Below are positions 1 to 59,240 of a DNA stretch of 61,077 bases, in pieces. The notes under the pieces are model-generated. The model worked only from the letters and a program-made list of their open reading frames with translations, was not told the DNA's origin and did not search any database. Source of the DNA: an uncultured virus (IMG/VR IMGVR_UViG_3300021960_000026) (taxonomy: Duplodnaviria; Heunggongvirae; Uroviricota; Caudoviricetes); the IMG/VR virus record IMGVR_UViG_3300021960_000026; one strand, written 5' to 3'. Every line of letters starts with the position of its first letter. Within the stretch, counting starts at the first letter, position 1. A program made the translations under genes and the position numbers.

Positions 1-696
1 GTCACGTGCAACTGCCTGTCTTACCGCTGCCATGAATATGTTGTCCAATTGTCCTCTTGATAGGGTAACTGCACCATCCTCAAATATAAATTCTGCTTCG
101 CTCCAATCAATGGACGCTGCCTGCATTGTTTTGTTTTGCTGGCTTGGTGGAACTATTTTCTTTCCTTTCTGGCTCTTGATAGCAACGTTATTGGTCGGAG
201 TGGGTTGTGGTTTTTCTTGATCCTGTGATGTAGTTTGTTGTGTGTTAGTGGGTGCATTTGCATCCTTGGCACCTGCTACGGCACCCTTTGCAACATCCGC
301 CACGCCCTTTGCCACTGCTCCAACGCCCTTGGCTATTCCGCCTGCAACCTTGCCTACGCCCTTAGCAGCCGCGCCAGCGGCCGTCCCTACGGCGGCTCCA
401 ACTTTTTGACCAGCAGTCATCTTGGTCATTTCCTTTTCGGCATCTCCCGTAGGATAGTTGTTCTTTCTTAGAAAATCTATTACTGTCTGTGGTGTTGGCT
501 TTCCGCCAACCTTGCCCATGAATGTATCAAATTGTTTGATTAACCAGTTGGCTTCCTTGCCAACTTCAAGATTGCCCTTTGCTTGTCTACCAGTAGCACC
601 CGGAACGAATGATTTTGCCTTGTTAGCAAATCGTGATAGCATGCCCTGTGGTGCTTCATCTAATTGTTGTTCGATCAGAATTTCGTTTAAACGCAT
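1..696 (-). CDS. Ala/Gly-rich hypothetical, probable virion/internal head protein (runs off the left window edge; not in ORF track)
   Basis: My translation from ATG at 696: MRLNEILIEQQLDEAPQGML...AAAKGVGKVAGGIAKGVGAVAKGV..., open to position 1; ATAAATA late-promoter motif upstream at 733-727. Confidence 0.7.
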   Translation of the reverse strand, partial: MRLNEILIEQQLDEAPQGMLSRFANKAKSFVPGATGRQAKGNLEVGKEANWLIKQFDTFMGKVGGKPTPQTVIDFLRKNNYPTGDAEKEMTKMTAGQKVGAAVGTAAGAAAKGVGKVAGGIAKGVGAVAKGVADVAKGAVAGAKDANAPTNTQQTTSQDQEKPQPTPTNNVAIKSQKGKKIVPPSQQNKTMQAASIDWSEAEFIFEDGAVTLSRGQLDNIFMAAVRQAVARD

Positions 697-726
697 TGAT
701 AAATGTCCATTACTTTATTAATGTAG

Positions 727-733
727 TATTTAT
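727..733 (-). promoter_or_regulatory. Putative gp55-type late promoter (ATAAATA)
   Basis: Similar to T4 late consensus TATAAATA; the motif recurs before many structural genes in this window. Confidence 0.55.
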
Positions 734-749
734 GTTCGAAAGACTGTAA

Positions 750-1326
750 AGAGAGATCTAAAGATCTCTTGCACTTTCGCTGTCGCTCAGTGCATTTTTC
801 TCCTCACGAACTTTTAAGACACTTATTATATAGTGAACAATAACTGCGAAGCAGTTTTAGCATCATCTAGATTGTATGGTCACAATTAGCCCGTCTCCGG
901 GCCAAAGGTGTGTTTTGAACATCATCTGAGTTCGCACAGTCACAATAGCATTAGAACTACAAGATTGTATAATTTACAATATTTTACACAAAATTTTAAT
1001 ATATTTTGTATATTGTACAACCTAGCGCAGGCGGTTATCCGGTACCTACTCATTCCGTCTTAGTATCTTATGTACAACGGCAGTTATACTTGAAATGCTA
1101 TCTCCAAGTATAACCTGTGGGAATGACCCACTCTTTTAGCCTATTCGTTACTTTATTATTACACAGCAAACCGGTTGTTTTAGGCATATCCGATCGTCGT
1201 CCTGTTAAGGATAGTGCTGTTGCCACTCCGCCGTTACCCAGAGAATTCCTTACCGTGCGACATCACCACGGATTTCGGGCACCATACCAGTTGCCGGTGC
1301 AGGCTTAATTAACGGTTTATACTGCC
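750..1326 (-). ncRNA. Candidate large structured non-coding RNA (~580 nt)
   Basis: No credible ORF; many hairpins, GNRA loop (GCCCG-GAGA-CGGGC) and G-U pairs on the minus strand, two loop-mediated long-range pairings, duplicated 3' module; boundaries approximate. Confidence 0.65.
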
Positions 1327-1761
1327 TTAGAGTATTGTTTTGAGGTGTTCTTTTAGAATTTTGGAACCGCCCACTCGCACGTTGATTATTCCATTGTAAT
1401 AATCGTCTGTTTCCAGCACCCTGCGATCAAACTGTTCCTTTGCCTCTAGATAACTTAGTATGCCTTTGCTTGGACAATAGTGAAGAATTTCTCTTGTAAA
1501 CTTTTCTTCGCCTAGTTTTGCAACGTCTTCCAGAAGATTGTCCGAGGAGCCCCAATAGTCTCTCCAATCGCTTTCAACTGTTGAACGTCTTTTATTTTTT
1601 CTGCCTTTTAAAGGTGGTCTAGTTTTTTTGAATTGAGCAAGTTTCTTGCCTATGTATTTTCGCCCGTTTGTGAGATTTGTGATCAAATAGACAAAGCCAA
1701 TGCATCCCTCCGGAATTTCATCAACAATTTTGTTATTATGTGTCCATTTGTGAGTCGTCAT
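1327..1761 (-). CDS. GIY-YIG endonuclease (short, T4 EndoII/Seg-like)
   Basis: GFVYLITN...KYIGKK motif, YWGSS, conserved Glu (YLEAKEQ) and YYN. Confidence 0.85.
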   Translation of the reverse strand: MTTHKWTHNNKIVDEIPEGCIGFVYLITNLTNGRKYIGKKLAQFKKTRPPLKGRKNKRRSTVESDWRDYWGSSDNLLEDVAKLGEEKFTREILHYCPSKGILSYLEAKEQFDRRVLETDDYYNGIINVRVGGSKILKEHLKTIL

Positions 1762-1993
1762 CAGTCTTACTTACTTTCGACGGTCGACCCACCATGCCTT
1801 TTCTGGCTTCCTTCCTATCTGATCTCTTATTTTGGATTTCTAATCTGCGTGTGCTTGCGTGCCTTCTTATTTCACTTAGCCAAAATCTTGCCTTTATTCC
1901 TGCCTCGTCTGATTCCTTGTATTCAAAACGTTCCTGCCACTTGAAGTAGTTTTGGAACGCTTCTATCATTTGATCATGTGAATCAGTACTCAT
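1736..1993 (-). CDS. Small basic helical protein, possibly Hc1-like DNA-binding
   Basis: AGIKARFWLSEIRRHASTRRLEIQ resembles phage Hc1-like proteins; overlaps both neighbours. Confidence 0.45.
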   Translation of the reverse strand: MSTDSHDQMIEAFQNYFKWQERFEYKESDEAGIKARFWLSEIRRHASTRRLEIQNKRSDRKEARKGMVGRPSKVSKTDDDSQMDT

Positions 1994-2619
1994 GCTTTCT
2001 CTATGTTAAAGTTTATAACAATTCTATAATCTGCATTTCTAGGATGCATGCCTGCATGTAAAAATTTACCATCAAACATTACAGTCCTGCCCTTTCTTGG
2101 TTCTATTCTTTTGCTGATGCTAAGATGTTTTGGGTATTGGCTAGGATCATAATACACTTTATTGTTCCAATCAAAGCCATCCTTGCTTATTTCGTTATCA
2201 AAAATAAAAGTATCACCGTCTGCATCATTAACATAGTAAAGCAACACCCAATGGGGAAGTAGATTATCAATGTGTGGAGTATTAAAACAATTTTCTAAAT
2301 CTGTATAAACTTTAGGTTGTAGATTTGCTTTGACTCTCTGTAAGGTTCCTGTTATTTCAAACGCTTTTTCAAATCGTTTGTTCATCTCGAGAAACAATTC
2401 GCTGAACGGAGAATTAATTTTTCCATCAAGTATTGCTCCGTGACAGAGCTGGAAGTGTTCAAATATTGGATTATTTTCCTTAAAATGATTTAAAAGTTCC
2501 TGACCTGCTGTGTTTTCGTGTCCTTCGCCGAGATGCCAAGGAAAATCCCCAGTTAGATATTTTTCTATATCGTTTTTTTCAGCATCGGTAAAGATATCAT
2601 CACGAACTATTATGGTCAT
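1990..2619 (-). CDS. 2OG-Fe(II) oxygenase superfamily protein
   Basis: HxD (PHID), LYYVND, GDT, distal His (FLHAG) and R-x-V-I-N-F-N end. Confidence 0.8.
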   Translation of the reverse strand: MTIIVRDDIFTDAEKNDIEKYLTGDFPWHLGEGHENTAGQELLNHFKENNPIFEHFQLCHGAILDGKINSPFSELFLEMNKRFEKAFEITGTLQRVKANLQPKVYTDLENCFNTPHIDNLLPHWVLLYYVNDADGDTFIFDNEISKDGFDWNNKVYYDPSQYPKHLSISKRIEPRKGRTVMFDGKFLHAGMHPRNADYRIVINFNIEKA

Positions 2620-15600: not shown

Positions 15601-16066
15601 AATTGAATTTGGTTCAACATTAAACAGCATCAAGTCCATAAGCGATGAAATTGTTTTTCATCCAGTAAAATATAAAGTGTTGTTTGGTCAAACAGCAACA
15701 CCAAAATTACAGGCACAATTTAAGGTTGTTAAGAACCCAGGTAAGACTATTAATAATAATAATTTAAAGGTAAGAATTGTTAATGCAATTAATGCTTTCT
15801 TTGATATTAATAATTGGGACTTTGGGGATAGATTTTATCTAAGTGAACTAACAACATTTGTAATTAATACTGTTTCTCCGGATGTCACTAATTTTGTTAT
15901 ATTGCCGAGACAACAAGATCAAGGATTCGGAAGTTTATTTGAAATCCAAGGAAAGCCAGACGAAATTTTTGTAAGCGGTGCGACAGTTGATGATATTGAA
16001 ATTGTATCTAGTATTACCGCTGCTGAAATTAATGTTGGCTCAGGCACAGTAGTGAGTAATACCTAA
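12668..16066 (+). CDS. gp6: Baseplate wedge subunit gp6-like (extended)
   Basis: DFENIR...DYIESS...ENFIELA...ARMLGY and ES..NIRTNAP..YYTQNRMIT.EDY; follows gp25; CTAAATA upstream at 12642. Confidence 0.82.
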   Translation: MSTTSRQNNLILNEDWKRIYQTFKNADFKSYDFENIRRVIITYLRENYPEDFNDYIESSEYLALIDAMAFLGQSLSFRLDLASRENFIELAERKESVLRIARMLGYNAKRNQGASGLLKFNSVTTTENIIDSNGRNLAQQTVRWNDPTNTNWAEQFILILNTAMSENTEFGRSQGSETIQGIPTEQYRFRSTTTDVPLYTYTKSVAGRNMTFEVVSTSFKDAEEIYEEAPTPGNQLGFVYRQDGKGPGSANTGFYMMFKQGSLELADFSIATPTTNESVSVESSNINNDDVWLFGLNSAGGQTTQWTQVSNLVGNNIAYNSILGNIRNIYSVSTQQNDRINLLFADGVYGNLPQGSFRVYYRVSNGLEYSISPTEMRGISIDVNYINSAGVGHTLTINLGLQYTVNNASATESTDNIRTNAPALYYTQNRMITGEDYNLAPLGSSQNVLKVKAINRTSSGISRNFDIIDASGKYSAVNVFADDGYIYKNENERILNFKYTSKTDIINFIRNNIEGSFSDTDLYNFYLTKFERVLFSETTTVWEAITNDINIGTGYFKNTVDNALLKVGTYATNTLKYLTVGANIKFTAPSGYSFKKGLLVATNSSDIEQTDYIWTKVVNVVGDGTNAGRGALDTGLGPITFNENVPSGSIATSIVPKFVNDLSTALETEMTNLIFAGLNFGLRYDTANAEWKIIQSQNLDTTNNFSLGKAGDTTSENLDSSWLMAFIKDNDQYIVRLRVLDYIFGSLSQNRFYFDKNERAYNNVTGKLIKDTVKVLNINSTIKSAQSLNRDYDFEISDTIEFDDGYESTKEIKVGFSDSDSDGVVDDPDAFIKVAGEDVDQNYLFFQSTVDSYGTTVFNLFDNSNNTILIAEKETLINVNDYNDGQLIYFTDISENRVKKVDRTTNTLVLQSNYRANIGRRDIKFQYTHAASEDRRIDPSVTNIVDLYLLTKNYDTDFRNYLAGAIAEPAAPTTDALRIEFGSTLNSIKSISDEIVFHPVKYKVLFGQTATPKLQAQFKVVKNPGKTINNNNLKVRIVNAINAFFDINNWDFGDRFYLSELTTFVINTVSPDVTNFVILPRQQDQGFGSLFEIQGKPDEIFVSGATVDDIEIVSSITAAEINVGSGTVVSNT

Positions 16067-19000
16067 TGGCTGATAAAAAATATCCTAAAAGTGATTTACC
16101 AATTAGAAAGTCGATAGACCTTCTACCGAATACCTTTAGAACAGATCCTAATAATAAATTTTTATCTGGTGTCGTTGATCCCTTTATTCAACCAGGCGCC
16201 TTAGATAAACTTTCTGGTTATGTTGGAAAGCGTTACGGAAAAACCTTTAATGGTAATGATGTTTATCTTGATACTGATCAAACACTAAGAAGTCGTTATC
16301 AACTGGAGCCAGGCGTTACAGTTGAAAAAGATCAAAACTTACAAAAGTTTTATGATTATCTAGATCTAAAGAACATGGTTAAGTTCTTTGGTAATGATAT
16401 TGACAGAGACGACAAGATAACATATCAAGAACATTATAGTTGGAATCCTCCCATCGATTGGGATAAGTTTATTAATTACAGTGAATACTATTGGATGCCT
16501 GCTGGTCCACCTTCGGTGTCAGTGCAAGGACAAACGCAATCGGTACAATCAACATATAAGGTTAATCAAGGAATAGGTTCGACCTGGCTATTCACACCAG
16601 ACGGCATAACAAATAATCCAACCATTACTTTATACAGAGGTCAGACTTATAAGTTTGATGTTAACTCTCCCGGAGAACCGTTTGTACTAAGAACTAATTA
16701 CGATACAGGATCACTCAATTATGATCCTCTTAAGACTTACTTTCCTGGAGACCTTGCAGTATATAATTCTCAGTTATGGAGAGCCAAACAGGAAATTTCA
16801 CCGCGTGATGGTAGTAGCATCGACATTGATTCTCAGGATTGGGAATTAATAGATAGTTCAGCATCTCTGGCTTCTTTAGTTTATAACCAAGGGGTTACAA
16901 ATAATTCTATAGAAGTTGGAACACTAACATTTAAAGTTCCTAACAATTCGCCTGATGTAATTTATTATCAGAGTGCAACTAATCCTAATAGATTAGGTAG
17001 ATTTATTATTGCTGATATTGATAGTAATACATTTATTGATGTTGAAAAGGATATTGTAGGAAAAAAATATTATACAAGTTCTAACGGTATTGAACTTTCT
17101 AACGGATTAGTATTAGAATTTAGAGGACAAGTACAGCCTGAAAAATATGCTTCGGATACTTGGTTAGTTGAAGGAGTGGGTAAAGAAATTAGATTAACAA
17201 GGTTTGCAGATTTAGTTCCTCCCGTTATTACATCTGATACTCCGGAAATACTTTTTGATAACCAAGGATTTGACACATTACCTTTTGATGATGCTCGCCA
17301 ATATCCTGGTCAGAAAGATTATATCACTATTAACAGAGCAAGCAAGGATTCAAATCCTTGGAGTCGTTACAATAGATGGTTCCACAGATCTGTATTAGAA
17401 TATTCATACAAAAATAGAGATAGTGATTTTGATGCTCCAGAAACAGCAAGGGCAAAAAGACCAATTATTGAATTCCATCCTGGAATACAACTTTATCAAC
17501 ACGGTACGGTTGCCAAGACAACTGTTGACTATGTTGACGATTATACAACTGATGTGTTTTCTACAATTGAAGGCAGCACAGGATATAGCGTTGATGGAGA
17601 GTTTCTATTTGAAGGAGCAAGAGTTCTAGTAACAGCAGATACTGACAGTCTTGCAAACAACAAGATTTATATTGTAAATTTTGTTATTCATAATGGTGTA
17701 AGACAAATTAATTTACGAGAAGCAAGCGATTCTGGATCAATACTTGATGAGTGTGTTCTTGTAAGGAGAGGAAAAAATAATACTGGTAACATGTTCTTCT
17801 TTAACGGAACAGCATGGAAACCTAGTCAAGAAAAGACAACAGTTAATCAACCACCATTGTTTAACATATTTGATGACAACGGTGTGAGTCTAGGCGATCA
17901 AGATACATATCCTGTTACTACATTTAAAGGAAACAAACTTGTTAGTTATAAAGTAGGTAACGGAACAGTAGACAAAGAATTAGGATTTGCCCTTTCGTAT
18001 CTTAACATTGATAATGTTGGCGACATTCGATTTGAATGGAATTTTGATATCGATTCAATCAGTTATACAGAAAATCAAAAAGTTTATTCAAAAAAAATAA
18101 ACACTTCTTATTTTAAAATTAATGGAAATTTAGATAACGGCTGGATATTAACAAATAAGAAATACCTTCAGCCAATAGTAGATTCCGTTATTGTCACAGA
18201 AGAAACATCTTCAGTTGTTTTTGATACTGTTGATTGGGAATTGTTAACTTCTGATATGGAAATTAATTTCTATCAAAATTCAGTTAAATTAGCAGATGAT
18301 TCATATTCAAGAGATCAACAAAAATTTACTTTTAATAAAACATTTTTAGTTAATGATGTAATTACTGTTAAGGTTGTCGGAGAGATAGAACCCGTTGGAG
18401 GATATTATGAAATACCAGTTGGGCTTGAAAAGAATCCGTTAAACGCAGTATTAACTTCTTTTACACTAGGTCAAGCAACCGACCACATTAGAACTTCTCT
18501 AGAGTTTGATGACAGATTTACTGGATCATTACCTGGTGCAAATAATTTAAGAGATATTTCAGATTTCCAACAAAATTCGAAAAGATTCTTAAAGCATAGT
18601 GGAATTGCTGCATCAGCAGTAGCGATGATTTGTGATAGACAAATTAACTTAATTAAATCATTACAATTTGCTAAGAAGCAGTATTCTGTGTTCAAAGAAA
18701 ATTTCTTAAAGAAAGCAACAGAAATACAGTTTACCAATGATGATCCTTCTAGCCAAGTAGATCAAATTATTGAAAACCTTACAAAAACAAAAACTATTAA
18801 CAGTCCTTTCTCTGACTCAGACATGGTTGGTACTGGTGCATATAATCTTTTAACTTACACAGTTGAAGATATAGGAATTAAAACTTTTACTCTTAGTGAA
18901 AAATTTGATTTGAAGACACTAAGCAGACGTGCAGTTTACATTTATAAAAATAATTCACAATTATTGAATGGCAGAGATTATGTCTTTGATTCAACGTTTG

Positions 19001-22000
19001 GTTTTGTTAGATTAACGTTGGATCTAAACGAAGGTGATGTTATTGAAATAAAAGAATACGTTTCAACAGCATTTAGCCACATTCCTGCAACACCAACATC
19101 GATAGGATTGTATAAAAAATATACACCTATGAAGTTCTTGGATGATACCTACAGAGATCCTCAATTTGTTATACAAGGACATGATGGCAGCATCACCGTT
19201 GCATATGGCGATTACAGAGATGATCTCTTATTAGAACTAGAATACAGAATTTATAATAATATCAAACAAGAATACGATCCTAAAGTTTTTGATGTTGATG
19301 CGAACCTTGGAGGATATTACAAGAATGCATTGTTTACAAAGGATGATTTTGATAGCATAGCAAGTCAGGAGTTTTTAAGATGGGTTGCAAACACTAATCT
19401 ATCATATACAACAAACGACTACTTCAAAGAAAACGAAACGTTTACATATACCTATTCAAATATGACGGATCCATCTATGTTGGAAAATATTCCAGGATGG
19501 TGGAGAGGTGTATACAAATATTTTTATGATACAGACAGACCACATCGTTGTCCTTGGGAGTGTTTAGGATTCAGCGAAAAGCCCACTTGGTGGGAAGACG
19601 AATATGGTCCAGCACCGTATACCAGTGGAAACTTAATTCTTTGGGAAGATATTAGAGATGGTATAATCAGGCATGGCGAGAGGGCAGGAACACACAAGAG
19701 ATATGCCCGCACATCGATCATGTCTCATCTTCCTGTTGACGCTGACGGAATATTATTAAGCCCATTAGATAGCGGCTTGGCAACTAACTTTACTTTAATT
19801 AATAATAAGGGAAGTTTTAAACTTGGTGATATTGCACCGTCGGAATATGCTTATAGATCGAGCAGTGAATTTCCTTTTGTGATAATGATTGCGTTATCAT
19901 TACTTAGACCTTTCGAATTCATAATTAGCAACTTTGATAGATCTAAAACAAAAAGAAATGCAGTTAATCAAATCGTAGATGTAACGTCAAATGTTTTTAT
20001 TACATCTAATCAGATTACTCTGCCAGTTCCGGGTGTAACACAATCTTCTGGATTGAGCATGTACATTTCCAGTTACATTAAAAGTTTAGGAAATGCAATA
20101 CAATCAGGACAGGATATACTTTCCAACATCAATGTAAGATTATCATCTAGATTGAACGGTTTTGTTGATAAGGATCAACAGAAATATCTTCTAGATAGCA
20201 AGAGTCCTAGTTCTTCCTCTTCTAGTATATTTGTTCCAGCAGAAAATTACAACATTATCTTTAATGTAAGTTCTCCGATTGCAAGTGTTTCATACAGCGG
20301 AGTAATTTTTGAGAAAACAGAAGGCGGTTGGATAGTCAACGGATATGATGATATTAATCCTTACTTTCCGTATTACACATCCATTGCAAATCAAAAAGAT
20401 CCAACACTTTCAGTTGGCGGTGTGTCAACAACATACATTAATTGGTCGGAAAATCAAAAGTTTAATAATGGTGCAATAGTACAATACAGAAATGATTATT
20501 TTAGAGCAAAAGAAACTCATACAAGCACTAATACATTTGAATCTGATAAATGGACAAAGTTACCAGAGTTACCAGTCAACGGTGCAGTAACAGCACAGAA
20601 AAGAAGGAACTTTAATAAGTTTTCCTTAAACAAATTAAGTTATGGAACAACTTTGAATTCTATTCAAGGTGTTGTGGACTTTTTATTAGGATACGAAGAA
20701 TATCTAAAAGCTCAAGGAATAGTTTTTGAAAATTACGATCCTGATAATCAAGTTATACAAGATTTTACAACTGCCTGTAAAGAATTTATGTACTGGACCA
20801 GTCACAATTGGGCAGTTGGAAGTTTAATCACAATTAGCCCCGGAGCAGAAAGATTAAAAATTTCAGTGCCTGTTGGTGTTGCTGATAATTTATTTGATGG
20901 TTTTTATGATTATAATGTCTTAACAGACAATGGAGAAGCAATACAACCTCAGAATATTGATGTTCTTAGAGATTTTCAAACATTTGTTATCTCTACAACT
21001 AATACCACGAGGGGAATATATTATCTTAAAGTAAATTATGTGTTAAAAGAACACGTAACTATATTCTCTGATAGAACAGTTTTTAATGATGTTATTTTTG
21101 ACAAGCCAACAGGTTATCGTCAAGAAAGAATCAAGGTACTAGGCTTCCGTACAGTTGACTGGGACGGAGATTATACCTCTCCTGGCTTCTTGTTTGATAA
21201 CGTAGATATTGCATCATGGGAACCATTTAAGGATTATAGACTTGGAGATATTGTAAACTATCAAGGTATAAATTACACAAGTAAGTATAATCACACAAGC
21301 AAAGAAGAATTTAATGCAGACAACTGGACTAAGTTAGATTCTACTCCTACCAAAAAATTGATTCCTAACTTTGATTACAGAGTTAATCAAATAGAAGATT
21401 ATTTTGATGTTGATTCGGAAGGATTAAGTTCAAGCCAGCGAGATTTAGCAAGACACACTGTTGGTTATCAAACCAGAGAGTATCTACAAAATCTTGCCGA
21501 AGATCAAGTCACTCAGTTTAGAATTTATCAAGGTTTCATTAGAGAAAAAGGAACGGCAAATTCTTTAACCAAGGTATTTGATAAGTTAGGAAGAACGGCA
21601 GATACCGGAATTAAGTTAAAAGAGGAATGGGCATTTAAACTAGGAGAGTTTGGCGGTAGTGATCAATCAAATAATATTGAAATTAAATTAGAAACTGATC
21701 AATTTAAAATAAATCCACAACCGGTTATTGTGACCGAAACAGCTCAAGGAAATTTTGCTGATAGATATTATAGAGTTGACAATTCGGACTTCCTTTATGC
21801 TCCAATACCATATACTACATCTATCAACGCAACAGCAACTGACGTTGTTCAGAAAACAGCAGGTTATGTAAAAAATACTCAGGTAAAATACATTGTAAAG
21901 AATAGAGATGATATTCTAAACATTGACATAAACAACGTCAATGAAAATGATCATGTTTGGGTAACGTTTGACAATACTTCGTGGACAGTTCTAAGAATTA

Positions 22001-25000
22001 ATTATGTTCCAGAACTTGTCATGACAGACATTGCAGCGAACAAAACTACAATCACAATTACTTTTAATAAAAGGCACGGGCTGACTGCAGGAGATATCAT
22101 CGGATTAACTGATCTAGGAGACATTACTGGTTTCCACAAAATTACTTCGGTTGATGCATTTCATATTTCTTTCGAGATATCCACGGCAACGGTAGAAATA
22201 GGGTTTGAACCAAGTTCTATAAAATATCCGATATTGCTAACCAAGGCAAGATTTAACGATTATACTTCTATTGATGTGGAACATCTTGCGTTATTATCAA
22301 CCGGATCAAAACTTTTTGTTGACAGAAACGAAAATGGTATATGGGAAGTTGTACAGAAAAATAAACAATACTCTCCTAAGAAACTTATCAACTACGGAAC
22401 AAGCACACCGTTAAACGCAGGTAAAAAAGTAGTTTACGCCGAGGTTAGAAAACAAATAGTAAGTTCGATTACCGGTTCAGGAATAGTTGTTTGCTATCTA
22501 GAAACACCGTCAGGTTTGGACGTAAAACAAATATTAGAACCACCTGTTTCTTTTAGAGCAACAACTACTGGAACCTTTGGACAGGAGATTGCATTAAGTC
22601 CTGACAATGAATGGTTGGTAATTGGTGCTCCTTATGCTAGTGGAATTAGAAGCAATTATCAAGGAGTGTTTAGTTCGATAGAAAGTTATTCAGCCAATGA
22701 TATTGTTCTCTATGCAGGACAATTATGGAAGGCAAAAACTTCTATCACAGGCGATGGAAGCACCATTAACGTTTATAGTGATGACTGGGAAATTGTTAAA
22801 AATGTACAAGCACTAGAGACAGGAACTAATGAAGGCTACGAACAGCAGGGAATGATCTCTGTATATAGGTATATTGGTAATCAATGGACATTACAAGATA
22901 ACTTTGTAAGTCCAAGAGCCGACGGCGATAAACTATTTGGTAGTAAGATAGCACTTGCAAAAAATGGCAGCAATTATTCTATGGTAGTTTCTGCACCAGG
23001 AGCAAGCGAAGAAAAGGGAAGAGTTTATACTTACATCTATGATGCAACAGATGGTTGGGTACTAGATCAAAATTCTGATTATAAAGGAACTTACGAACCA
23101 GGCGGAACATTTGCAGCCACTGAAATGAAACCAGGTAGAACTTACACTATTGCTTCATCTGGTACTACTAATTTTGGTCTTGTAGGTGCTCCAAATAATT
23201 CTCCGGGCACGGTGTTTGTTTCTTTAGGACCAACAGAAGGAACGGGAACAGTAACTCAACAAACATTTTATCCTAAAGACAGTGTTGTATATTATGCTGG
23301 TAATTTATGGAAGGCATTAGCAGATAATGAAGGTGACGGTAGTACAATTACAATAGAGTCTTCGGATTGGATTAAACTAGACACCATTAATACGTTAACA
23401 TCTTTACCTCAAAGTGTTAGCATCGAAGATGACGGTTCTACCCTAGCAACAGGAATTTTAACTAATTCGCAATTGGCAGAACTTATTAAAGCCGGAGATA
23501 AATTTGGTAGTTCTGTTGCATTAGATTATACAGGAAACACTCTTGTAATCAGTGCCGTGGAGGCTGATGGACAATATTTTGCAAACTATAGAGGAAATTG
23601 GCAGGCAAACTTTGAATACATCCAAGGAGATGTTGTAAAATATCAAAACGGTTATCATAGATTAGATAACATAGGTAGTAATGCAGTTGGGCCTGACAGT
23701 TCAATTAGAAGTTACAACCAACCACCTGATAGCGGTTATCCGTGGGTTAATGTTGGCGACAGTTCATCAGAATCTGTAGGTAAGGTTTTCATCTATAAGA
23801 AAAATGAACTAGGATATTATTATCTAATACAAACTATTACGGCAGACTCATTAGCAGAGATTAGTGACCTAGCACAAACGGAAACTATCAACAGCGGAGA
23901 TCAATTAGGCTATGCTGTATCAATTGATCACAGCGGTAATACTTTGGTAATTACAAGTCCTAAAGCAGATAGAAACTATCAGAATCAAGGAAGTGCGTAC
24001 ATCTTTAAGTATGAAACAGATTCTAGTGAAAACAGATTTAGATTAAAACAAAAAATTGATAGTTACGGAAAATATCCAAATGAATATTTTGGACAAAGTG
24101 TTTCTATATCACCTAGCACAAATAAAATAGTTGTAGGTGCAAATAACACAGGATATAATTTACCGATTAGATTTGACGAAAGTCAAACATCATTTGATAC
24201 TTCTAAAACAACATTTAAAACATACGGCGGTTATTCTGGAGCAGTTTATGTTTATGAGAAAAAAGGAGATTTGTATTTCCTAGCAGAAAAACTACAAGAC
24301 GATCTTTCACTTAATGAATCTTTTGGTTATTCAGTTCATGCTTCTGCAGATATTATTTTAGTTGGATCGCCTGATTATATTGAACCAACCACACACGGTG
24401 CAACACTAGATTTTAGTGGAACTGCTGTTGGTATGGTTAGACTTTTTAGAAAACAGTTAGGTATTAATTCTTTAGAAATAATTGGTCAACAAACAGAAAA
24501 AGTTGATTTAGAATCGATCAAGAGAATTGCACTTTATGATACAACAACTGATACAAAGATACAGGATCTTGAAGTGTATGATCCTGCTAAACTAAAAATC
24601 TTAAGAGAAGCAGAAAGAGAATTGTCTTTTAAAACTCCGTATGATCCTGCAACATATAATGTAGGTATTGACGGAGTCACGGTTGATTCGAGCATTGCTT
24701 GGTATGATAAGAATGTTGGAAAATTATGGTGGAATATTTCAACAGCCAAGTGGATTGATTATGAGCAAGGAGATACTGCTTATAGATTAGCAAACTGGGG
24801 TAAACAAGCCCAAGGTTCAAGCATTGATGTTTATGAATGGGTAGAATCACCATTGCTACCAAGCGAGTGGTCATCAGTGGCAGATTCAACTGAAGGTTTG
24901 CAGTTAGGAATAAGCGGCCAACCTTTATACCCTGATGATACAGTTTATAGTTATAAAGAATTTTTAAATGTAAACACCGGCTTAGTTAGTGAAACAAAAT

Positions 25001-28000
25001 ACTATTACTGGGTAAAAAATAAAACAACGATTCCTTCAAATACGAAAGGCAGAACAATTTCGTCAGCATCCGTTGCATTATCAATCAGCGACCCGTCGAC
25101 GGTTGGAAACACCTACATAGCACTGGCTGATTCAAATAAAGTGTTTTTCTATAATTACAGAGCAATTGTATCTGGTGATACAACAATTTTAAACATAGAA
25201 CACTACACTGACAAAAGTGCTAAGAATGCAATTCATAACGAATATCAATTATTAACCGAAGGTGTTGCTGACAGCGTTCCACCTAAAAAATTAGAAACAA
25301 AATGGATTGATAGTTTAATAGGATATGACAAACAAGGAAACAGAGTTCCTGATCCTGCTATACCTGCAAAACAACAATTTGGTATTGGCTTTAGACCGAG
25401 ACAAAGTATGTTTGTCAATAGAAAACAAATTCTAAAACAAACTATTGAAACCGTTAATGGAATTCTTAAGAAACAACCATTTGCTAACATTATTAGTTTT
25501 GATAATTTAAACTTGTTTGACGCCCAGCCTGATACAAGTTTATATCTGTATGATGTTAGTGTATCAACTTTAATTGATTTAGAAACTGTTGGTACAGTTA
25601 GAGTAGAACAAGCACAACTTACTCCTAATATCATAAACAATGAAATTAGTTCTGTTAATATTGTTAATCCTGGTTTTGGATATAGACCACAAGAAATATT
25701 TGACCAAGAAATTGCAGGAGTATATGCAGGTCCTGCCGTTACTATTGAAGGTGATGGTACTGGAGCAGAAGCAGTATGTCATATAGATGGTCAAGGTAGA
25801 GTCACTGCTGTTGTTGTTACCAAACCTGGTAAGAATTACACATATGCAAATGTTTCCGTAAGAAGATTTTCTGTCTTAGTCGAAACAGACAATACAGCAA
25901 ATAACTATTGGTCAATCTATGCCTGGGATAATGTTAGAAAATCTTTCTTCAGAAGTTCCTCACAAGGATTTGATACTAGAAAGTATTGGTCCTATGCCGA
26001 TTGGTGGAAAACAGGATATGGTCCTACATCTAGAGTAACAACAGAAATATCTGACGTTTCCAAAGAACCAACAATCATTACCGAGATTGGTGATCTTATT
26101 AGAATAAAAGAATATGGTTCCGGCGGCTGGGCAATTTTTGAAAAGATGTCTGATTCCAGCAGTGTTCCTTTAGGAAACTATCAACTAGTTGGAAGGTTCA
26201 ACGGAACAATACAGTTATCTAATACATTGTATGATATTACAACAAGTGGTATAGGTTTTGATAATAACGTGAGCTTTGACACAGGATTGTATGATTTAGA
26301 ACCAACGACAGAATTAAGAAATATTTTCAAAGCAATCAAAGAGGATATCTTTATTGGTGATTATGACATTCATTGGAATGAAATATTCTTTAATTGTGTC
26401 AGATATGTAATGCATGAACAGACTTACGTCGACTGGGCATTTAAGACAAGTTTCTTGAATGCTACACACAACGTTGGTGATTTTAAAACAACTACTAATT
26501 ATAAAAACGATAACTTAGAAAGTTTTGAAAGTTATATTAGCGAAGTAAAACCATATCGAACAACGGTTAGAGAATATGTAAGTAGATATGATTCGATACA
26601 GACTAATCCTATTTCAACAACAGACTTTGATTTACCAACTGTATATTCTCAAGAATTAGGGAAGTTTAGTACTATAAATCAATTCAGCACAGAACTAAAT
26701 TCTTATCCTTGGAAATACTGGCTTGATAATAATGGATATAGTATTGTTCAAATAGTTATATCTAAACCTGGTAGTGGTTATACTAGTGTTCCTAAGGTAG
26801 TAATTGAAGGAAACGGATCAGGTGCAATAGCACAAGCATTTATTTCTAACGGTAAAGTTTCTGGTGTTAGGATGATACAGACAGGATCCGGATATACTAA
26901 AACTCCTACAATTTCATTAGTTGGAGGTAACGGTAGTTCAACGGATATTGCAAAAGCAGTAGCAGTTCTTGGAGAAACAAAAGTTAGAACTTTTGATATC
27001 AATATTAAGTTTGATAGAATAAACAAGACTGGATACTACAATAACTTTACAGATACTCAAACGTTTACCGCTAACGGGCAGACAGCAATATTCGATCTAA
27101 AGTATGCTCCGACTAGAGATAAGTCAAAAATCACTATTACTAAAAACAATGGTGTTGTGCTAGGAAGTGATTATACAATCAATCTCTATAAAAATAGCAC
27201 TGATGACTTTAATGTTCTTAGAGGAAGGATTGTTTTTAATATTGCACCGGATGTTGGAGATATTATAAAAGTAACTTACGAAAAGAACGACGAATTATTT
27301 GATGCTGTTAATAGAATTAACAAATACTATGCTCCGGTAGAAGGAATGAAAGGAGATGACTTGGGTCAATTAATGACCGGAGTTGATTTTGGTGGTGTAC
27401 AAATTCAAGGAACCACATTTGATGTTACAGGTGGTTGGGACGCACTTCCTTGGTTTACAGATAGTTGGGATAGTGTTGAAGCAAGTGCGGATTATTATCA
27501 TGTATGTGACGGAAGCACAGAAGATGTGACACTTCCGTTTATCCCTGCCGACGGACAGGAAATTAATATCTATCTTAAGCGTGCAGGTGAGGGAACCCTA
27601 CCAACAATTGATAATTTACAATACAGCGAAAGCGTAAAGAATCCACCAGTAATTAGAATAGATGATCCTTTCTTCTTTGACGGAAACGACTCTTCAACGT
27701 CTACAAGTCCAAATGCACAAATGCCAACATTTGTCGGAGATGGTTCAACAAGTGTTATTGAGATAGGTCGTTATATTACAACTAATGATGGCGATATCTT
27801 AATATTTAGACCACAGGAAAGCGACGGTAGTGTAACCATTACTGATCCTAATATTGTTGATACAAATGTAAGTGGCGGAACATTATCTGCAATTGATCAA
27901 GCATATGTAACTGCTTCGGGAATTTCTGCAGAAGAAATACAGATCGAAGGCGGAAGATTTATAGGACCAGATCAAGTTCCTGCAACAGAAGAAAATATTC

Positions 28001-58833: not shown

Positions 58834-59023
58834 TGTCTTTATTATACGCTTTCTCTTGCTCGTTGTCAACCTTTTTAGACAGCGAAAAACTGCCATTAAA
58901 GTTGTCAGTCCAAACCAAATCGTCACCTATATCCCAACCCATTTGGTTCAATAATTCTGTGGGTAGGGGAAGAACCAAATCGCCAGTATCTGGATCTTCC
59001 TCAACTGTTACTGTATGTTTCAA
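58817..59023 (-). CDS. AbrB/MazE-like small DNA-binding protein
   Basis: LVLPLP.ELL..MGW..GD.L swapped-hairpin pattern. Confidence 0.55.
   Translation of the reverse strand: MKHTVTVEEDPDTGDLVLPLPTELLNQMGWDIGDDLVWTDNFNGSFSLSKKVDNEQEKAYNKDNDNSN
58841..58869 (-). promoter_or_regulatory. Perfect-consensus sigma70 promoter upstream of queE
   Basis: TTGACA (58869-58864), 17 nt, TATAAT (58846-58841); ATG 7 nt downstream. Confidence 0.8.
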
Positions 59024-59033
59024 AGTAATCTCC

Positions 59034-59240
59034 TTAGAAATACTTCTTTAACACTTCAATTTCGTCATGATATTTTGCAATAATATCCAACTCTTTTTCA
59101 ATTGCTTCCAAAATATCTGGATGTTCTCCAATCCCCGCTGGATTGTTTAGATACACTTCGACATTCATCTTGTGCTTTTGAATATGGCCTTCTGCGTGTG
59201 ATACTAATGCGTTTATCATTTCGTCTCTATTAATTGCCAT
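59034..59240 (-). CDS. Small hypothetical phage protein
   Basis: NVEVYL.NP.GIGEH.DI motif. Confidence 0.65.
   Translation of the reverse strand: MAINRDEMINALVSHAEGHIQKHKMNVEVYLNNPAGIGEHPDILEAIEKELDIIAKYHDEIEVLKKYF

What the first reader, a model, noticed from the sequence alone, without database searches (positions are those of the whole stretch)
750..1326. Candidate ~580-nt pseudoknotted non-coding RNA directly behind a GIY-YIG nuclease gene
Seen: this is by far the largest non-coding tract in a tightly packed window, and it starts at the GIY-YIG stop on the same strand. Stems include GCACC/GGTGC (1300-1279), CCGTG/CACGG (1271-1253), GAUCGG/CCGGUU with G-U pairs, GTGGG/CCCAC (1131-1117), a perfect 10-bp stem (1083-1092/1105-1114), a long AU-rich arm (~960-1025) and GCCCG-GAGA-CGGGC (902-889). 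Two hairpin loops match distant segments: 1094-1101 with 945-952 (8 bp) and 1120-1126 with 1050-1056 (7 bp), giving two pseudoknots. The GNRA loop and G-U pairs favour the minus strand. Known: phages encode large ornate RNAs (ROOL, GOLLD), and some nucleases use adjacent structured RNAs (IscB-HEARO/omegaRNA). Inference: an unclassified large phage ncRNA that may be co-transcribed with, and act with, the minimal 144-aa nuclease, or may prime replication.
Basis: partly seen in the sequence, partly recalled or inferred. Interest (0 to 1): 0.85.

Follow-up and report, generated by a model that had tools for sequence, protein, structure and literature searches.

The report
Large pseudoknotted phage RNA gene
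The 630 gene-free bases encode a real, heavily folded non-coding RNA of about 580 bases that is common in uncultured T4-like phages; its front third is an already catalogued orphan RNA motif, its job is unknown, and the nuclease gene beside it looks like a neighbour, not a partner.

Summary
The observation largely holds. Window 697-1326 is the largest ORF-free gap, and it holds a minus-strand structured RNA (about 1328-744). It is not wholly unclassified: 1159-1305 matches Rfam RF01718, Polynucleobacter-1, an orphan motif (62.2 bits, cut-off 37). In IMG/VR this motif is followed by the same middle and 3' domains in 72 of 76 loci with enough DNA, so the Rfam family is the 5' domain of a much larger RNA.

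His second pseudoknot fails: its 3' arm instead forms a covarying long-range helix (1056-1052 with 957-953). Two further pseudoknots appeared.

The nuclease partnership is not supported. The upstream gene is GIY-YIG in most phage loci but an unrelated PD-(D/E)XK nuclease in 4. The GIY-YIG gene occurs without the RNA. Three bacterial copies have neither nuclease within 0.4-9 kb.

The strangest feature is two 3' repeats whose variable bases are kept identical to each other (65 of 65 at two positions). I read them as twin docks for one partner. Function is unknown.

The parts
744..1328 (-). Whole RNA as aligned with relatives: from the conserved AGGCA at the GIY-YIG stop codon to just past the terminal hairpin (about 585 nt). 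True ends not mapped.
   Evidence: Alignment A1 of 7 distinct close relatives; 65 non-redundant relatives share the architecture.
1323..1327 (-). Conserved AGGCA overlapping the GIY-YIG stop codon (1327-1329). Candidate 5' end, made by transcription start or by processing.
   Evidence: An AGGC anchor is found in 46 of 65 relatives. In L004 and L006 a TATACA-17-TAATAT promoter-like pair sits 6 nt upstream of it (my reading). No promoter-like site on the minus strand in the window scan.
1159..1305 (-). 5' domain: match to Rfam RF01718, Polynucleobacter-1 RNA.
   Evidence: 62.2 bits against gathering 37, E 7.5e-11, model positions 1-141 of 141. Stems 1300-1296/1283-1279, 1220-1215/1168-1163 and 1195-1190/1174-1169 covary.
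1231..1315 (-). Pseudoknot PK0: 5' tail CCGUU (1315-1311), which lies outside the Rfam model, pairs with AACGG (1235-1231) in the loop of the Rfam hairpin.
   Evidence: 5 bp, 89-97% paired, 2-5 pair types. Strand-swapped variants are seen, such as AACGG/CCGUU, GACAG/CUGUC and UUCGG/CCGAA. On A3 69.5-80% paired, with all 5 pairs changed on both sides.
1117..1131 (-). Hairpin GUGGG-UCAUU-CCCAC.
   Evidence: The stem covaries (GCGAG/CUCGC, GCAGG/CCUGC). Loop sequence and length are not conserved in 45 relatives.
1083..1114 (-). 10-bp hairpin whose loop carries UAGCAU (1100-1095), the 5' arm of pseudoknot PK1.
   Evidence: Up to 6 pair types per position; helices 3 and 4.
946..951 (-). AUGCUA, the 3' arm of pseudoknot PK1 (pairs with 1100-1095).
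   Evidence: 95.6% paired; 6 of 6 pairs changed on both sides in 45 sequences; 89-95% paired in 65 sequences.
1074..1078 (-). GUUGU, the 5' arm of pseudoknot PK3 (pairs with AUAAC at 1038-1034).
   Evidence: 98.2% paired in 45 sequences; 3 of 5 pairs changed on both sides, in 22, 17 and 9 cells.
1028..1048 (-). Hairpin UAGG...CCUG enclosing the nearly invariant GGUACCGGAUAACCGCC. Its loop AUAAC (1038-1034) is the 3' arm of PK3.
   Evidence: Helix 8: 100% paired, 2 pairs with changes on both sides. Invariant columns listed.
1052..1056 (-). GGAAU, the 5' arm of the long-range helix Hd (pairs with GUUCU at 957-953).
   Evidence: 88-97% paired, 3-6 pair types. 5 of 5 pairs changed on both sides; 78% paired on the tool alignment, which has register offsets.
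953..957 (-). GUUCU, the 3' arm of helix Hd.
960..1020 (-). AU-rich arm, a lineage-specific insertion.
   Evidence: Present only in the window type and L096 among 7 close relatives. Most of 45 relatives have nothing at this place.
920..931 (-). Repeat R1, ACUCAGAUGAUG.
   Evidence: Its variable positions are identical to those of R2: 927/868 in 65 of 65, 926/867 in 65 of 65, 923/864 in 63 of 65, 921/862 in 61 of 65.
885..906 (-). Hairpin UUUGGCCCG-GAGA-CGGGCUAAU with a GNRA loop, lying between R1 and R2.
   Evidence: 8 pairs, 86-100% paired. The loop reads GAGA, GCAA or GUAA in relatives.
861..872 (-). Repeat R2, AUCUAGAUGAUG, 59 nt after R1.
   Evidence: Bacterial copies keep the identity with other sequences.
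842..856 (-). Hairpin AACUGC-UUC-GCAGUU. The loop region CUUCG is invariant; it is a triloop closed by C-G, not a canonical UUCG tetraloop.
   Evidence: 6 predicted pairs, one with a compensatory change in 3 of 7 sequences. Variants GUGC/GCAC and UUAC/GUAA in relatives.
770..794 (-). Hairpin UGCAC-UGA-GC-GACA-GC-GAAA-GUGCA: outer stem, a purine-rich internal loop (UGA opposite GAAA), a 2-bp inner stem and a GNRA loop.
   Evidence: The outer stem covaries (GCAC/GUGC, GCGU/ACGC, GCUU/AAGC). The loop reads GACA, GAAA, GAUA or GCAA.
752..769 (-). Terminal hairpin AGAGAUC-UUUA-GAUCUCU.
   Evidence: 7 pairs, 94-100% paired, 2-5 pair types. The tail is U-poor: 0-5 T in the next 8 bases in 42 relatives, so it is not a typical intrinsic terminator.
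728..735 (-). CATAAATA, one base off the T4 late-promoter consensus TATAAATA (consensus recalled), 31 nt before the ATG at 696.
   Evidence: Read. Within 160 nt after the hairpin, 2 of 42 relatives have exact TATAAATA, 18 have a one-off variant and 22 have none.
1327..1761 (-). Upstream neighbour: 144-aa GIY-YIG nuclease-domain protein. A neighbour, not shown to be part of the RNA's function.
   Evidence: PF19835, 123.1 bits; phrog_447.
1..696 (-). Downstream neighbour: ORF of 232 aa or more (open at the window edge) beginning MRLNEILIEQQLDE.

Best explanation
What it is (about 0.95). A stand-alone structured non-coding RNA of roughly 580 nt, read from the minus strand. It belongs to a widespread phage-borne family whose 5' domain is the Rfam motif Polynucleobacter-1.

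It has three parts. (a) The 5' domain (1328-1159) is tied by a tail-to-loop pseudoknot. A sister group of phages carries an unrelated 5' module at this place. (b) The middle core (1158-940) is shared by both groups and locked by two pseudoknots and a long-range helix around the nearly invariant GGUACCGGAYRACCGCC. (c) The 3' domain (940-750) is a tandem pair of about 59-nt modules, each ending in a capped hairpin.

How it most likely works (about 0.3; inferred, not shown). It acts in trans as a folded scaffold. The rigid core holds the two 3' modules so that each displays the same lineage-specific 8-10-nt element (R1, R2). Two copies of one partner dock there, either a protein dimer or two identical stretches of nucleic acid, so the RNA works as the RNA half of a ribonucleoprotein or as a sponge. 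In the phage it is probably made with, or just behind, the early/middle gp46-GIY-YIG transcription unit, and it ends at the terminal hairpin ahead of the next gene's late-type promoter.

The confidence number given is for the whole statement, mechanism included.
For: Real RNA, minus strand:
- Rfam hit on the minus strand only.
- GNRA loops that change within GNRA, and G-U pairs on that strand.
- Middle domain: 87.6% of cells paired against 70.3% in shuffles (0 of 500 reach it) and 35-46% when slid.
- 5' domain: 85.7% against 69.3% (0 of 500) and 37-42% when slid.

One family, and large:
- Of the 80 fetched, 72 of the 76 with enough downstream DNA also carry the 3' core.
- The 3' core pattern found at least 120 more stretches.
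- 65 non-redundant full-length copies share the architecture.

Modularity: phages without RF01718 (45 of 50 records) keep the middle and 3' domains behind a different 5' module.

Independence from its neighbours:
- It occurs in a Methylococcaceae genome bin between a sensor-kinase gene and a dehydrogenase gene, and in a Pseudomonadota bin beside a Doc/MazE pair.
- The Methylococcaceae bin has two copies.
- Only 1 of 151 genomes of that order carries the family.

Twin docks:
- R1 and R2 are identical at their variable positions in 65/65, 65/65, 63/65 and 61/65 sequences. No other column reaches MI above 0.43.
- The sister group: 52 of 52 identical.
- Bacterial copies carry quite different elements, again the same in both repeats: ACUUAAAGAG twice, ACAUAAA twice.
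- The fixed difference directly beside them (ACUC in R1, AUCU in R2) argues against simple gene conversion.

Presence in RNA libraries: contigs from 4 of 4 metatranscriptome runs laid cover parts of 924-1320 and the GIY-YIG gene. One contig (1265-1415) spans the gene-RNA junction.
Against: - No partner was identified, and no experiment bears on function.
- The contigs carry no strand, and DNA carry-over into the RNA libraries is not excluded.
- The identical covariation could have other causes: a direct non-canonical interaction between R1 and R2, or pairing with a poorly aligned loop that my column search cannot see. My per-sequence complement search parsed only 7 of 65 RNAs and showed nothing above its control.
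- The RNA's ends are inferred from conservation, not mapped.
- The terminal hairpin lacks a U-tract in most relatives.
- No sigma-70-like promoter was found on the minus strand in the window, so the RNA may be only the 3' part of the nuclease mRNA.
- A universal host partner is hard to square with dock sequences that differ between lineages.
Confidence: 0.35

Rival explanations
1. RNA-only assembly. Like the large ornate RNAs ROOL, GOLLD and OLE, the RNA folds and then multimerises, and the twin repeats and capped hairpins are the contacts between copies.
For: Size, several pseudoknots, GNRA-capped hairpins, phage and mobile-island distribution, and no fixed protein neighbour. A tandem pair of equal modules suits a symmetric contact. 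The start of the abstract of 10.1101/2024.12.08.627333, seen in the listing, reports cryo-EM structures of GOLLD and other large ornate RNAs under the title 'RNA-only complexes'.
Against: No match to ROOL, GOLLD, OLE or raiA in Rfam, even at E up to 10. Identical, non-complementary repeats cannot pair with each other by standard pairs. R2's AUCUAGAU is self-complementary in the window, but the variants AUCUGAAU, AUCUGCAU and AUCUACAU are not.
Confidence: 0.15
2. Ribozyme. The conserved pseudoknotted core is a catalytic centre, for instance one that cuts the RNA free from the upstream mRNA at the conserved AGGCA.
For: Nearly invariant unpaired or pseudoknotted blocks (CACUAUCCUUNACAGGACGA, GGUACCGGAYRACCGCC). 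A conserved AGGC at the upstream gene's stop codon in 46 of 65 relatives. No own promoter detected in the window.
Against: No match to any ribozyme family of Rfam. Some relatives have a promoter-like pair placed to start transcription exactly at AGGCA, so cleavage would not be needed there. No cleavage data.
Confidence: 0.1
3. Cis-acting mRNA element: a long 3' UTR that stabilises or terminates the gp46-GIY-YIG message, or a leader that controls the downstream gene, as Weinberg et al. suggested for Polynucleobacter-1.
For: Same strand as both neighbours and starting at the stop codon. An RNA-library contig spans the gene-RNA junction. The table in PMC2864571 marks the motif 'y' for cis-regulatory (passages seen). 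A gene with the same kind of N-terminus follows the RNA in 21 of 23 relatives that have a near downstream ORF.
Against: About 580 nt with four tertiary pairings is far more than a terminator or stabiliser needs. A covarying hairpin and a late-promoter-like box lie between the RNA and the next ATG. In bacteria the RNA has no same-strand gene next to it on either side: the upstream ORF is divergent and the next downstream ORF lies on the opposite strand. In relatives a 60-64-aa ORF on the opposite strand separates the RNA from the next gene.
Confidence: 0.1
4. One reading: the RNA is the partner or guide of the adjacent minimal GIY-YIG nuclease, an RNA-dependent nuclease system.
For: A small nuclease gene lies directly upstream in 69 of 77 judged loci found through the RNA's 5' motif (63 GIY-YIG adjacent, 2 at 278-279 nt, 4 PD-(D/E)XK) and in 76 of 76 found through its 3' core. 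The 144-aa protein has no DNA-binding domain. R1 and R2 are lineage-specific sequences, which could be read as guides.
Against: - All these loci share the gp46-p85-nuclease synteny of one phage clade, so the counts are not independent.
- Two unrelated nuclease folds occupy the slot.
- 6 loci have another gene in between and 2 have no nuclease.
- The GIY-YIG protein is in 790 cultured-phage records, and my searches found no RNA in Melnitz.
- No blastn match to the RNA in 50,697 cultured-phage records.
- Bacterial copies have neither nuclease in the DNA fetched, 0.4-9 kb on either side.
- No complement of R1/R2 elsewhere in the 61-kb window.
Confidence: 0.05
5. A DNA-level or replication element: an origin with a primer RNA, or iterons or recombination sites read as DNA.
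For: It lies beside the recombination genes gp46/gp47. R1 and R2 are direct repeats kept identical, as binding sites for one DNA-binding protein would be.
Against: Compensatory changes, G-U pairs and GNRA loops on one strand are RNA signatures. The family passes an RNA covariance model. The bacterial copies lie between ordinary genes. The 59-bp spacing is not a whole number of DNA turns.
Confidence: 0.04

Closest known systems
Polynucleobacter-1 RNA motif (Rfam RF01718; Weinberg et al. 2010, Genome Biol 11:R31, PMC2864571; I saw its table entry and passages by term search)
   Same: Window 1159-1305 matches the whole model above the curated threshold. The model's stems covary here too. It comes from the same fresh-water and estuary kind of samples, and its function is unknown.
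   Different: The Rfam model is 141 positions; the conserved RNA is about 580 nt. A 5' tail outside the model pairs with the loop of one of its hairpins. The middle and 3' domains have no Rfam model. The paper's table marks it as probably cis-regulatory, which the anatomy here does not favour.
Large ornate RNAs of unknown function: ROOL, GOLLD, OLE, raiA (Rfam families; 10.1101/2024.12.08.627333, only the listing and start of the abstract seen)
   Same: Several hundred nucleotides, many covarying helices and pseudoknots, carried by phages or mobile DNA, and no assigned biochemical role.
   Different: No match to any of their covariance models. No tRNA genes nearby. Multimer formation is untested.
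HEARO / omegaRNA with IscB, and TnpB reRNA
   Same: A structured RNA next to a small nuclease gene on mobile DNA.
   Different: No HEARO match. The nuclease is GIY-YIG or PD-(D/E)XK, not RuvC/HNH. The nuclease is exchangeable and dispensable. No long guide at an RNA end.
T4 stable RNAs C and D with the GIY-YIG endonuclease SegB in the tRNA cluster, near the internal-protein genes ipII/ipIII (recalled from the T4 literature; no call)
   Same: A T4-type phage locus that combines stable non-coding RNA, a free-standing GIY-YIG gene and, if my reading of the downstream ORF is right, an internal-protein-like late gene.
   Different: There are no tRNAs here. The RNA is far larger than T4 RNAs C and D. 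Homology is neither tested nor claimed.
Protein-sponge RNAs such as CsrB/RsmZ (recalled)
   Same: Repeated short single-stranded elements displayed on a folded RNA. Many relatives read CGGAUGAU/UGGAUGAU, close to the CsrA site core GGAUG.
   Different: The GGA is not conserved (AGA in the window; GAA, GCA and ACA elsewhere). There are only two sites. So it is not a CsrA sponge; the likeness is one of principle only.

Membership tests
Rfam RF01718 Polynucleobacter-1 | Match to the family covariance model at or above the gathering score (37 bits) | tested here: met
   62.2 bits, E 7.5e-11, model 1-141 of 141, minus strand, window 1159-1305.
Rfam RF01718 Polynucleobacter-1 | The model's helices are kept by compensatory change | tested here: met
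   On 45 relatives 85.7% of cells pair against 69.3% in shuffles (0 of 500). P1 95.1%, closing stem 91.4%, last hairpin 98.3%.
Rfam RF01718 Polynucleobacter-1 | Cis-regulatory position in a 5' UTR, as proposed in the table of PMC2864571 | tested here: inconclusive
   A gene follows on the same strand. However, about 460 nt of further conserved RNA, a covarying terminal hairpin and a late-promoter-like box lie between. In bacteria no same-strand gene follows.
ROOL / GOLLD / OLE / raiA / HEARO (Rfam) | Match to the family covariance model | tested here: not met
   No match at gathering in the window or in 20 related loci. None at E up to 10 in 600-1500 or in a sister locus.
IscB/TnpB-type RNA-guided nuclease system | Obligate linkage of the RNA with its nuclease gene | tested here: not met
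   PD-(D/E)XK in place of GIY-YIG at 4, a gene in between at 6, and no nuclease at 2 of 77 loci. Neither nuclease in the DNA fetched around 3 bacterial copies. GIY-YIG without the RNA in Melnitz, as far as blastn and Rfam could see.
Group I intron carrying a homing endonuclease gene | Match to Intron_gpI and split flanking exons | tested here: not met
   No Rfam intron match at E up to 10. Both flanking ORFs are complete and conserved as separate genes in relatives.
tRNA / tmRNA | Detected by ARAGORN | tested here: not met
   0 genes in the window and in 10 related loci.
Intrinsic terminator (for the terminal hairpin 769-752) | G+C-rich stem followed at once by a U-tract | tested here: not met
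   The window tail is CUUUACAG. In 42 relatives the next 8 bases hold 0-5 T, with 3 the most common. The terminator scan lists no minus-strand site here.

The most novel reading that the evidence does not exclude
The catalogued 141-nt Polynucleobacter-1 motif is only the exchangeable head of a roughly 500-600-nt RNA machine carried by hundreds of aquatic T4-like phages and a few bacterial islands. Its business end is a tandem pair of modules that display the same lineage-specific 8-10-nt word twice. That word is a specificity element. Either it is read by a co-evolving dimeric partner, or the two words zip to each other in parallel register through like-with-like pairs (A.A to G.G, U.U; constant offset of 59 nt), which would be without close precedent in natural RNAs. 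Changing the word would then re-target or re-shape the RNA.
Probability: 0.25. Interest if true: 0.85.

Novelty: new variant of a known kind. Interest (0 to 1): 0.6.

Why it matters
Large, intricately folded bacterial and phage RNAs without a known job are rare, and each has been a lead to new biochemistry. This work shows four things.

1. An orphan Rfam motif known since 2010 is one domain of a much larger RNA that is abundant in uncultured aquatic T4-like phages.
2. The RNA's core is fixed by four covariation-supported tertiary pairings, which give testable constraints for structure work.
3. The tempting 'RNA-guided mini-nuclease' reading does not fit the distribution.
4. Two repeats are held identical to each other while they change between lineages. 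Ordinary base pairing does not explain this kind of covariation, and it points to where function should be sought.

I found no paper describing any of this beyond the 141-nt motif. 'Polynucleobacter-1' occurs in 1 paper of the library, and two further searches and two papers checked by term gave nothing.

Tried and rejected
- RNAalifold's long-range pairs 34-36/488-490 and 108-123/398-413 of A1: rejected. They are invariant or broken, and they compete with the Rfam closing stem, which covaries.
- Hairpin CCGUU/GACGG (1080-1076/1061-1057): invariant, and it overlaps the covarying PK3, so left open.
- 'UUCG tetraloop' at 850-847: on checking, the closing pair does not fit. It is a UUC triloop closed by C-G.
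- K-turn or C/D-box reading of GUGAC...GAUGAUG: dropped. The G of UGA changes to A in about half the relatives, and bacterial copies replace the whole word.
- CsrA sponge: dropped, because GGA is not conserved.
- R1 pairing with R2 (AGAU/AUCU): not kept in the GAAU, GCAU and ACAU variants.
- Complement of R1/R2 within the RNA: none found by column MI. The per-sequence search parsed only 7 of 65 RNAs and showed no excess over a reversed-word control, so it is uninformative.
- Complement in the 61-kb window: only the two repeats themselves; 1.34 matches expected by chance.
- Expression: 24 metatranscriptome runs from 23 studies hold 7-20% of the sampled words of 600-1800. In the 4 runs laid, no contig lay on 181-900. 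That is no evidence of absence, and contigs give neither strand nor level.
- Cultured model phage: none found. blastn of the window RNA and of a majority-type RNA against 50,697 phage records gave no match. A 1-mismatch hit of the core block in Melnitz had no RNA around it.
- Nearest held record G001 does not cover this region.
- Homology between the downstream ORF and the small ORFs beside the bacterial copies: BLASTP finds only MR(L/I)NE(I/L) (E 2.0; E 0.026 between two bacterial ORFs). Not established.
- Terminator reading of the last hairpin: weak.
- Complex prediction, structure prediction and protein database searches were not used, because no protein partner is claimed.
Full report
SETTING. 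The window has the gene layout of a T4-like phage. On the minus strand lie a late sigma factor (gp55-like), SbcD- and SbcC-like gp47 and gp46, a 2OG-Fe(II) oxygenase, an 85-aa ORF and a 144-aa protein. The 144-aa protein is one SegE-type GIY-YIG domain (PF19835, 123 bits; phrog_447). The stretch 697-1326 between its stop codon and the ATG of the next minus-strand ORF is 630 nt. It is the largest gap between ORFs of 80 aa or more; the next largest is 303 nt. No ORF of 30 aa or more is shared with relatives in this stretch.

RELATIVES. Three kinds of search brought in related DNA.
- Cultured phages: no DNA match.
- IMG/VR, downstream ORF: 12 loci.

The order gp46 - 85-aa ORF - GIY-YIG - long gap (477-787 nt) - downstream ORF holds in 25 loci with 19 distinct gaps. 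Aligning these gaps showed that their 3' two thirds are homologous everywhere. The 5' third comes in two forms. One is the Polynucleobacter-1 form, found in 5 of 50 records of this first set. The other is an unrelated module with no Rfam or ARAGORN match.

I then searched IMG/VR with two patterns taken from the RNA itself.
- Of the 80 loci fetched with the second pattern, 72 also have the 3' core about 150 nt downstream. Four of the other 8 are cut off too early to tell.

The Rfam motif is therefore the front domain of a much larger RNA. After removing near-duplicates, 65 full-length sequences under 94% identity were available. They share the whole architecture of the window RNA.

STRUCTURE. 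An unbiased scan of all column pairs in the 65 sequences, scans of sub-alignments, RNAalifold on 7 close relatives and formal counts on tool-made alignments of 45 sequences agree on the following.

5' domain:
- P1 1300-1296/1283-1279.
- A second hairpin around 1271-1253.
- The Rfam hairpin 1243-1226.
- A closing stem 1220-1215/1168-1163.
- The invariant UCC/GGA hairpin.
- GAUCGG/CCGGUU 1195-1190/1174-1169.
- A new pseudoknot, PK0: CCGUU (1315-1311), upstream of the Rfam model's first base, pairs with the loop of the Rfam hairpin (1235-1231). Relatives carry the swapped arrangement AACGG/CCGUU and many other complementary pairs.
- For the domain as a whole, 85.7% of cells pair against 69.3% in shuffles (0 of 500) and 37-42% when the partners are slid.

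Middle domain:
- Hairpins 1131-1117 and 1114-1083.
- PK1: the loop of the second hairpin (1100-1095) pairs with 951-946 (95.6% paired, all six pairs changed on both sides).
- PK3: 1078-1074 pairs with the loop 1038-1034 of the hairpin 1048-1028 (98.2% paired).
- Hd: a long-range helix, 1056-1052 with 957-953 (3-6 pair types per position).
- For the domain as a whole, 87.6% paired against 70.3% in shuffles (0 of 500) and 35-46% when slid.

3' domain:
- A GNRA-capped hairpin, 906-885.
- A hairpin with an invariant CUUCG loop region, 856-842.
- A hairpin with a purine-rich internal loop and a GNRA cap, 794-770.
- A terminal hairpin, 769-752.
- All have compensatory changes.

The GNRA loops vary only within GNRA, and G-U pairs occur on the minus strand. 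This settles the strand.

All his hairpins stand. His first pseudoknot is PK1. His second fails. In 7 close relatives the two central pairs break in 5 and 4 sequences with no compensation, and the pairing equals its shuffles. The loop is conserved in neither sequence nor length in 45 relatives. The 3' arm is the 5' strand of Hd. The AU-rich arm is an insertion private to the window's lineage.

THE NUCLEASE QUESTION. Among the 80 loci found by the 3' core, GIY-YIG lies directly upstream in 76 of 76 that could be judged. Among the 80 found by the 5' motif, 77 could be judged:
- 63 have GIY-YIG adjacent.
- 2 have it 278-279 nt away.
- 6 have it about 900-970 nt away with another ORF in between.
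- 4 have a PD-(D/E)XK nuclease instead (Pfam PDDEXK_15, 103-105 bits, confirmed for two of them).
- 2 have neither.

One PD-(D/E)XK locus (L257) is a close relative of the window phage, with gp46 93% identical. All these loci share one synteny block, so the high counts are not independent events.

In the other direction, the GIY-YIG protein is found in 790 cultured-phage records. The closest is the OM43 phage Melnitz (75% identical). It carries the gene in another context and no detectable RNA.

A scan of one genome per prokaryotic species gave 22 pattern hits, of which 4 are true copies. All four pass the Rfam threshold at 46-98 bits.
- One looks like a phage contig with GIY-YIG upstream.
- A 153-kb contig of a Methylococcaceae bin carries the RNA between a MASE1-PAS histidine-kinase/receiver gene and a short-chain dehydrogenase gene.
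- A Pseudomonadota bin carries it beside DUF6876, DUF6641 and a Doc/MazE pair.
- The fourth (L358) is a 2.1-kb contig of a proteobacterial bin, too short to show its neighbours.
- No GIY-YIG or PDDEXK_15 homologue lies in the 9.5-17 kb fetched around three bacterial copies. One of those copies sits 0.4 kb from a contig end.
- The Methylococcaceae bin has two copies, but only 1 of 151 genomes of its order has any.

The RNA is thus mainly a phage gene that turns up sporadically in bacteria, and it does not need either nuclease next to it. Several earlier notes of this scan reached the same view on other genomes. I used them as leads and re-tested the claim here.

ENDS AND EXPRESSION.
- The 5' side starts with AGGCA overlapping the stop codon. 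An AGGC anchor is present in 46 of 65 relatives.
- In relatives with extra DNA after the nuclease gene, a promoter-like TATACA-17-TAATAT sits 6 nt before it (my reading).
- The window itself has no promoter-like site on this strand.
- The terminal hairpin is followed by a U-poor tail, and in the window by CATAAATA, one base off the T4 late-promoter consensus (recalled), 31 nt before the next ATG.
- Contigs from all four metatranscriptome runs laid cover parts of 924-1320 and the nuclease gene, and one contig crosses the junction. Contigs carry no strand and DNA carry-over is possible, so this is weak support for transcription and says nothing about ends.

THE UNEXPLAINED CORE OF THE MATTER. 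The 3' domain is a tandem pair of modules of about 59 nt, each built as AUUGUGAC - linker - AYYY + word - AAAAC - hairpin. The words R1 (931-920) and R2 (872-861) vary between lineages but are the same within each RNA.
- In 65 sequences the four variable positions agree in 65, 65, 63 and 61 cases. The best other column has MI 0.43.
- In the sister group, 52 of 52 agree.
- In two bacterial copies the words are quite different from the phage ones and again alike: ACUUAAAGAG twice, ACAUAAA twice.
- The bases just before the words differ in a fixed way (ACUC against AUCU). Gene conversion would erase this difference.

This is like-with-like covariation at a constant offset, not base pairing. I could not find a complementary partner in the RNA (the latter is uninformative) or in the window.

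BEST READING. This is a trans-acting, compactly folded RNA. Its conserved pseudoknotted core positions two equal modules that each present the same specificity word, probably to two copies of one partner. I put the identity of the element at about 0.95 and this mechanism at about 0.3. The rivals are an RNA-only multimer, a ribozyme, a cis-acting UTR, a nuclease partner and a DNA-level element. They are listed with what would refute each.

NOVELTY. The word 'Polynucleobacter-1' occurs in one paper of the library, the 2010 survey that defined the 141-nt motif. Its table lists it as a likely RNA, likely cis-regulatory, from Burkholderiales and fresh water or estuary. Further searches and two checked papers gave nothing on a larger RNA. 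I therefore file it as a new variant (a large extension) of a known kind.

Noticed in passing
window 1-696 (-); loci: The ORF after the RNA begins MRLNEILIEQQLDE. Of the 42 of 65 relatives whose terminal hairpin my script located, 23 have a same-strand ORF of 100 aa or more starting within 300 nt after it, and 21 of these begin M[KRN]-[ILVAT]-x-[EDQST]-[ILV]-... (for example MKVYEIISE, MKITEIIQE). The rest of the protein is variable and Ala/Gly-rich. This recalls the capsid-targeting sequence of T4 internal proteins (MKTYQEFIAE, recalled, not tested). With the late-promoter-like box it suggests an internal head protein.
   Followed up: partly
L364:7582-7992 (-) and L366:8554-8970 (-): In the Methylococcaceae bin each of the two RNA copies has, about 140-190 nt upstream and divergent, a paralogous 136/138-aa ORF (50% identical, E 1e-43) with no Pfam family. 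These ORFs start MRINELL/MRISELL, the same kind of N-terminus as the phage ORF downstream of the RNA. BLASTP does not establish homology.
   Followed up: partly
L365:3615-3839 (= L344 about 1984-2208): Behind the RNA in the Pseudomonadota bin, nhmmer finds extra partial copies of the 3' module (model 452-513 on +, 400-521 on -), as if the module had been duplicated and inverted there.
   Followed up: no
window 1990-2619 (-): The 2OG-Fe(II) oxygenase gene between gp46 and the 85-aa ORF was detected only in the loci that are 99-100% identical to the window (L001, L081, L086, L103, L243). It is missing at this place in all other syntenic relatives, so it is a recent insertion.
   Followed up: no
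L017, L018, L023, L040, L042, L050, L057, L068 (about 250 nt between RNA and next gene): These relatives carry an extra conserved 60-64-aa ORF on the opposite strand between the RNA and the downstream gene, followed by an exact TATAAATA.
   Followed up: no
window 16066-30009 (+): A single 4647-aa ORF among the structural genes.
   Followed up: no
window 58927-59229: The second-largest ORF-free gap of the window, 303 nt; not examined.
   Followed up: no
L257:825-1391, L233:883-1404: A PDDEXK_15 endonuclease gene sits in exactly the slot that GIY-YIG holds elsewhere. Two unrelated small nucleases alternate in front of a highly conserved RNA gene, a pattern also expected of free-standing homing endonucleases that target conserved DNA (recalled analogy: T4 SegB in the tRNA cluster).
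   Followed up: partly
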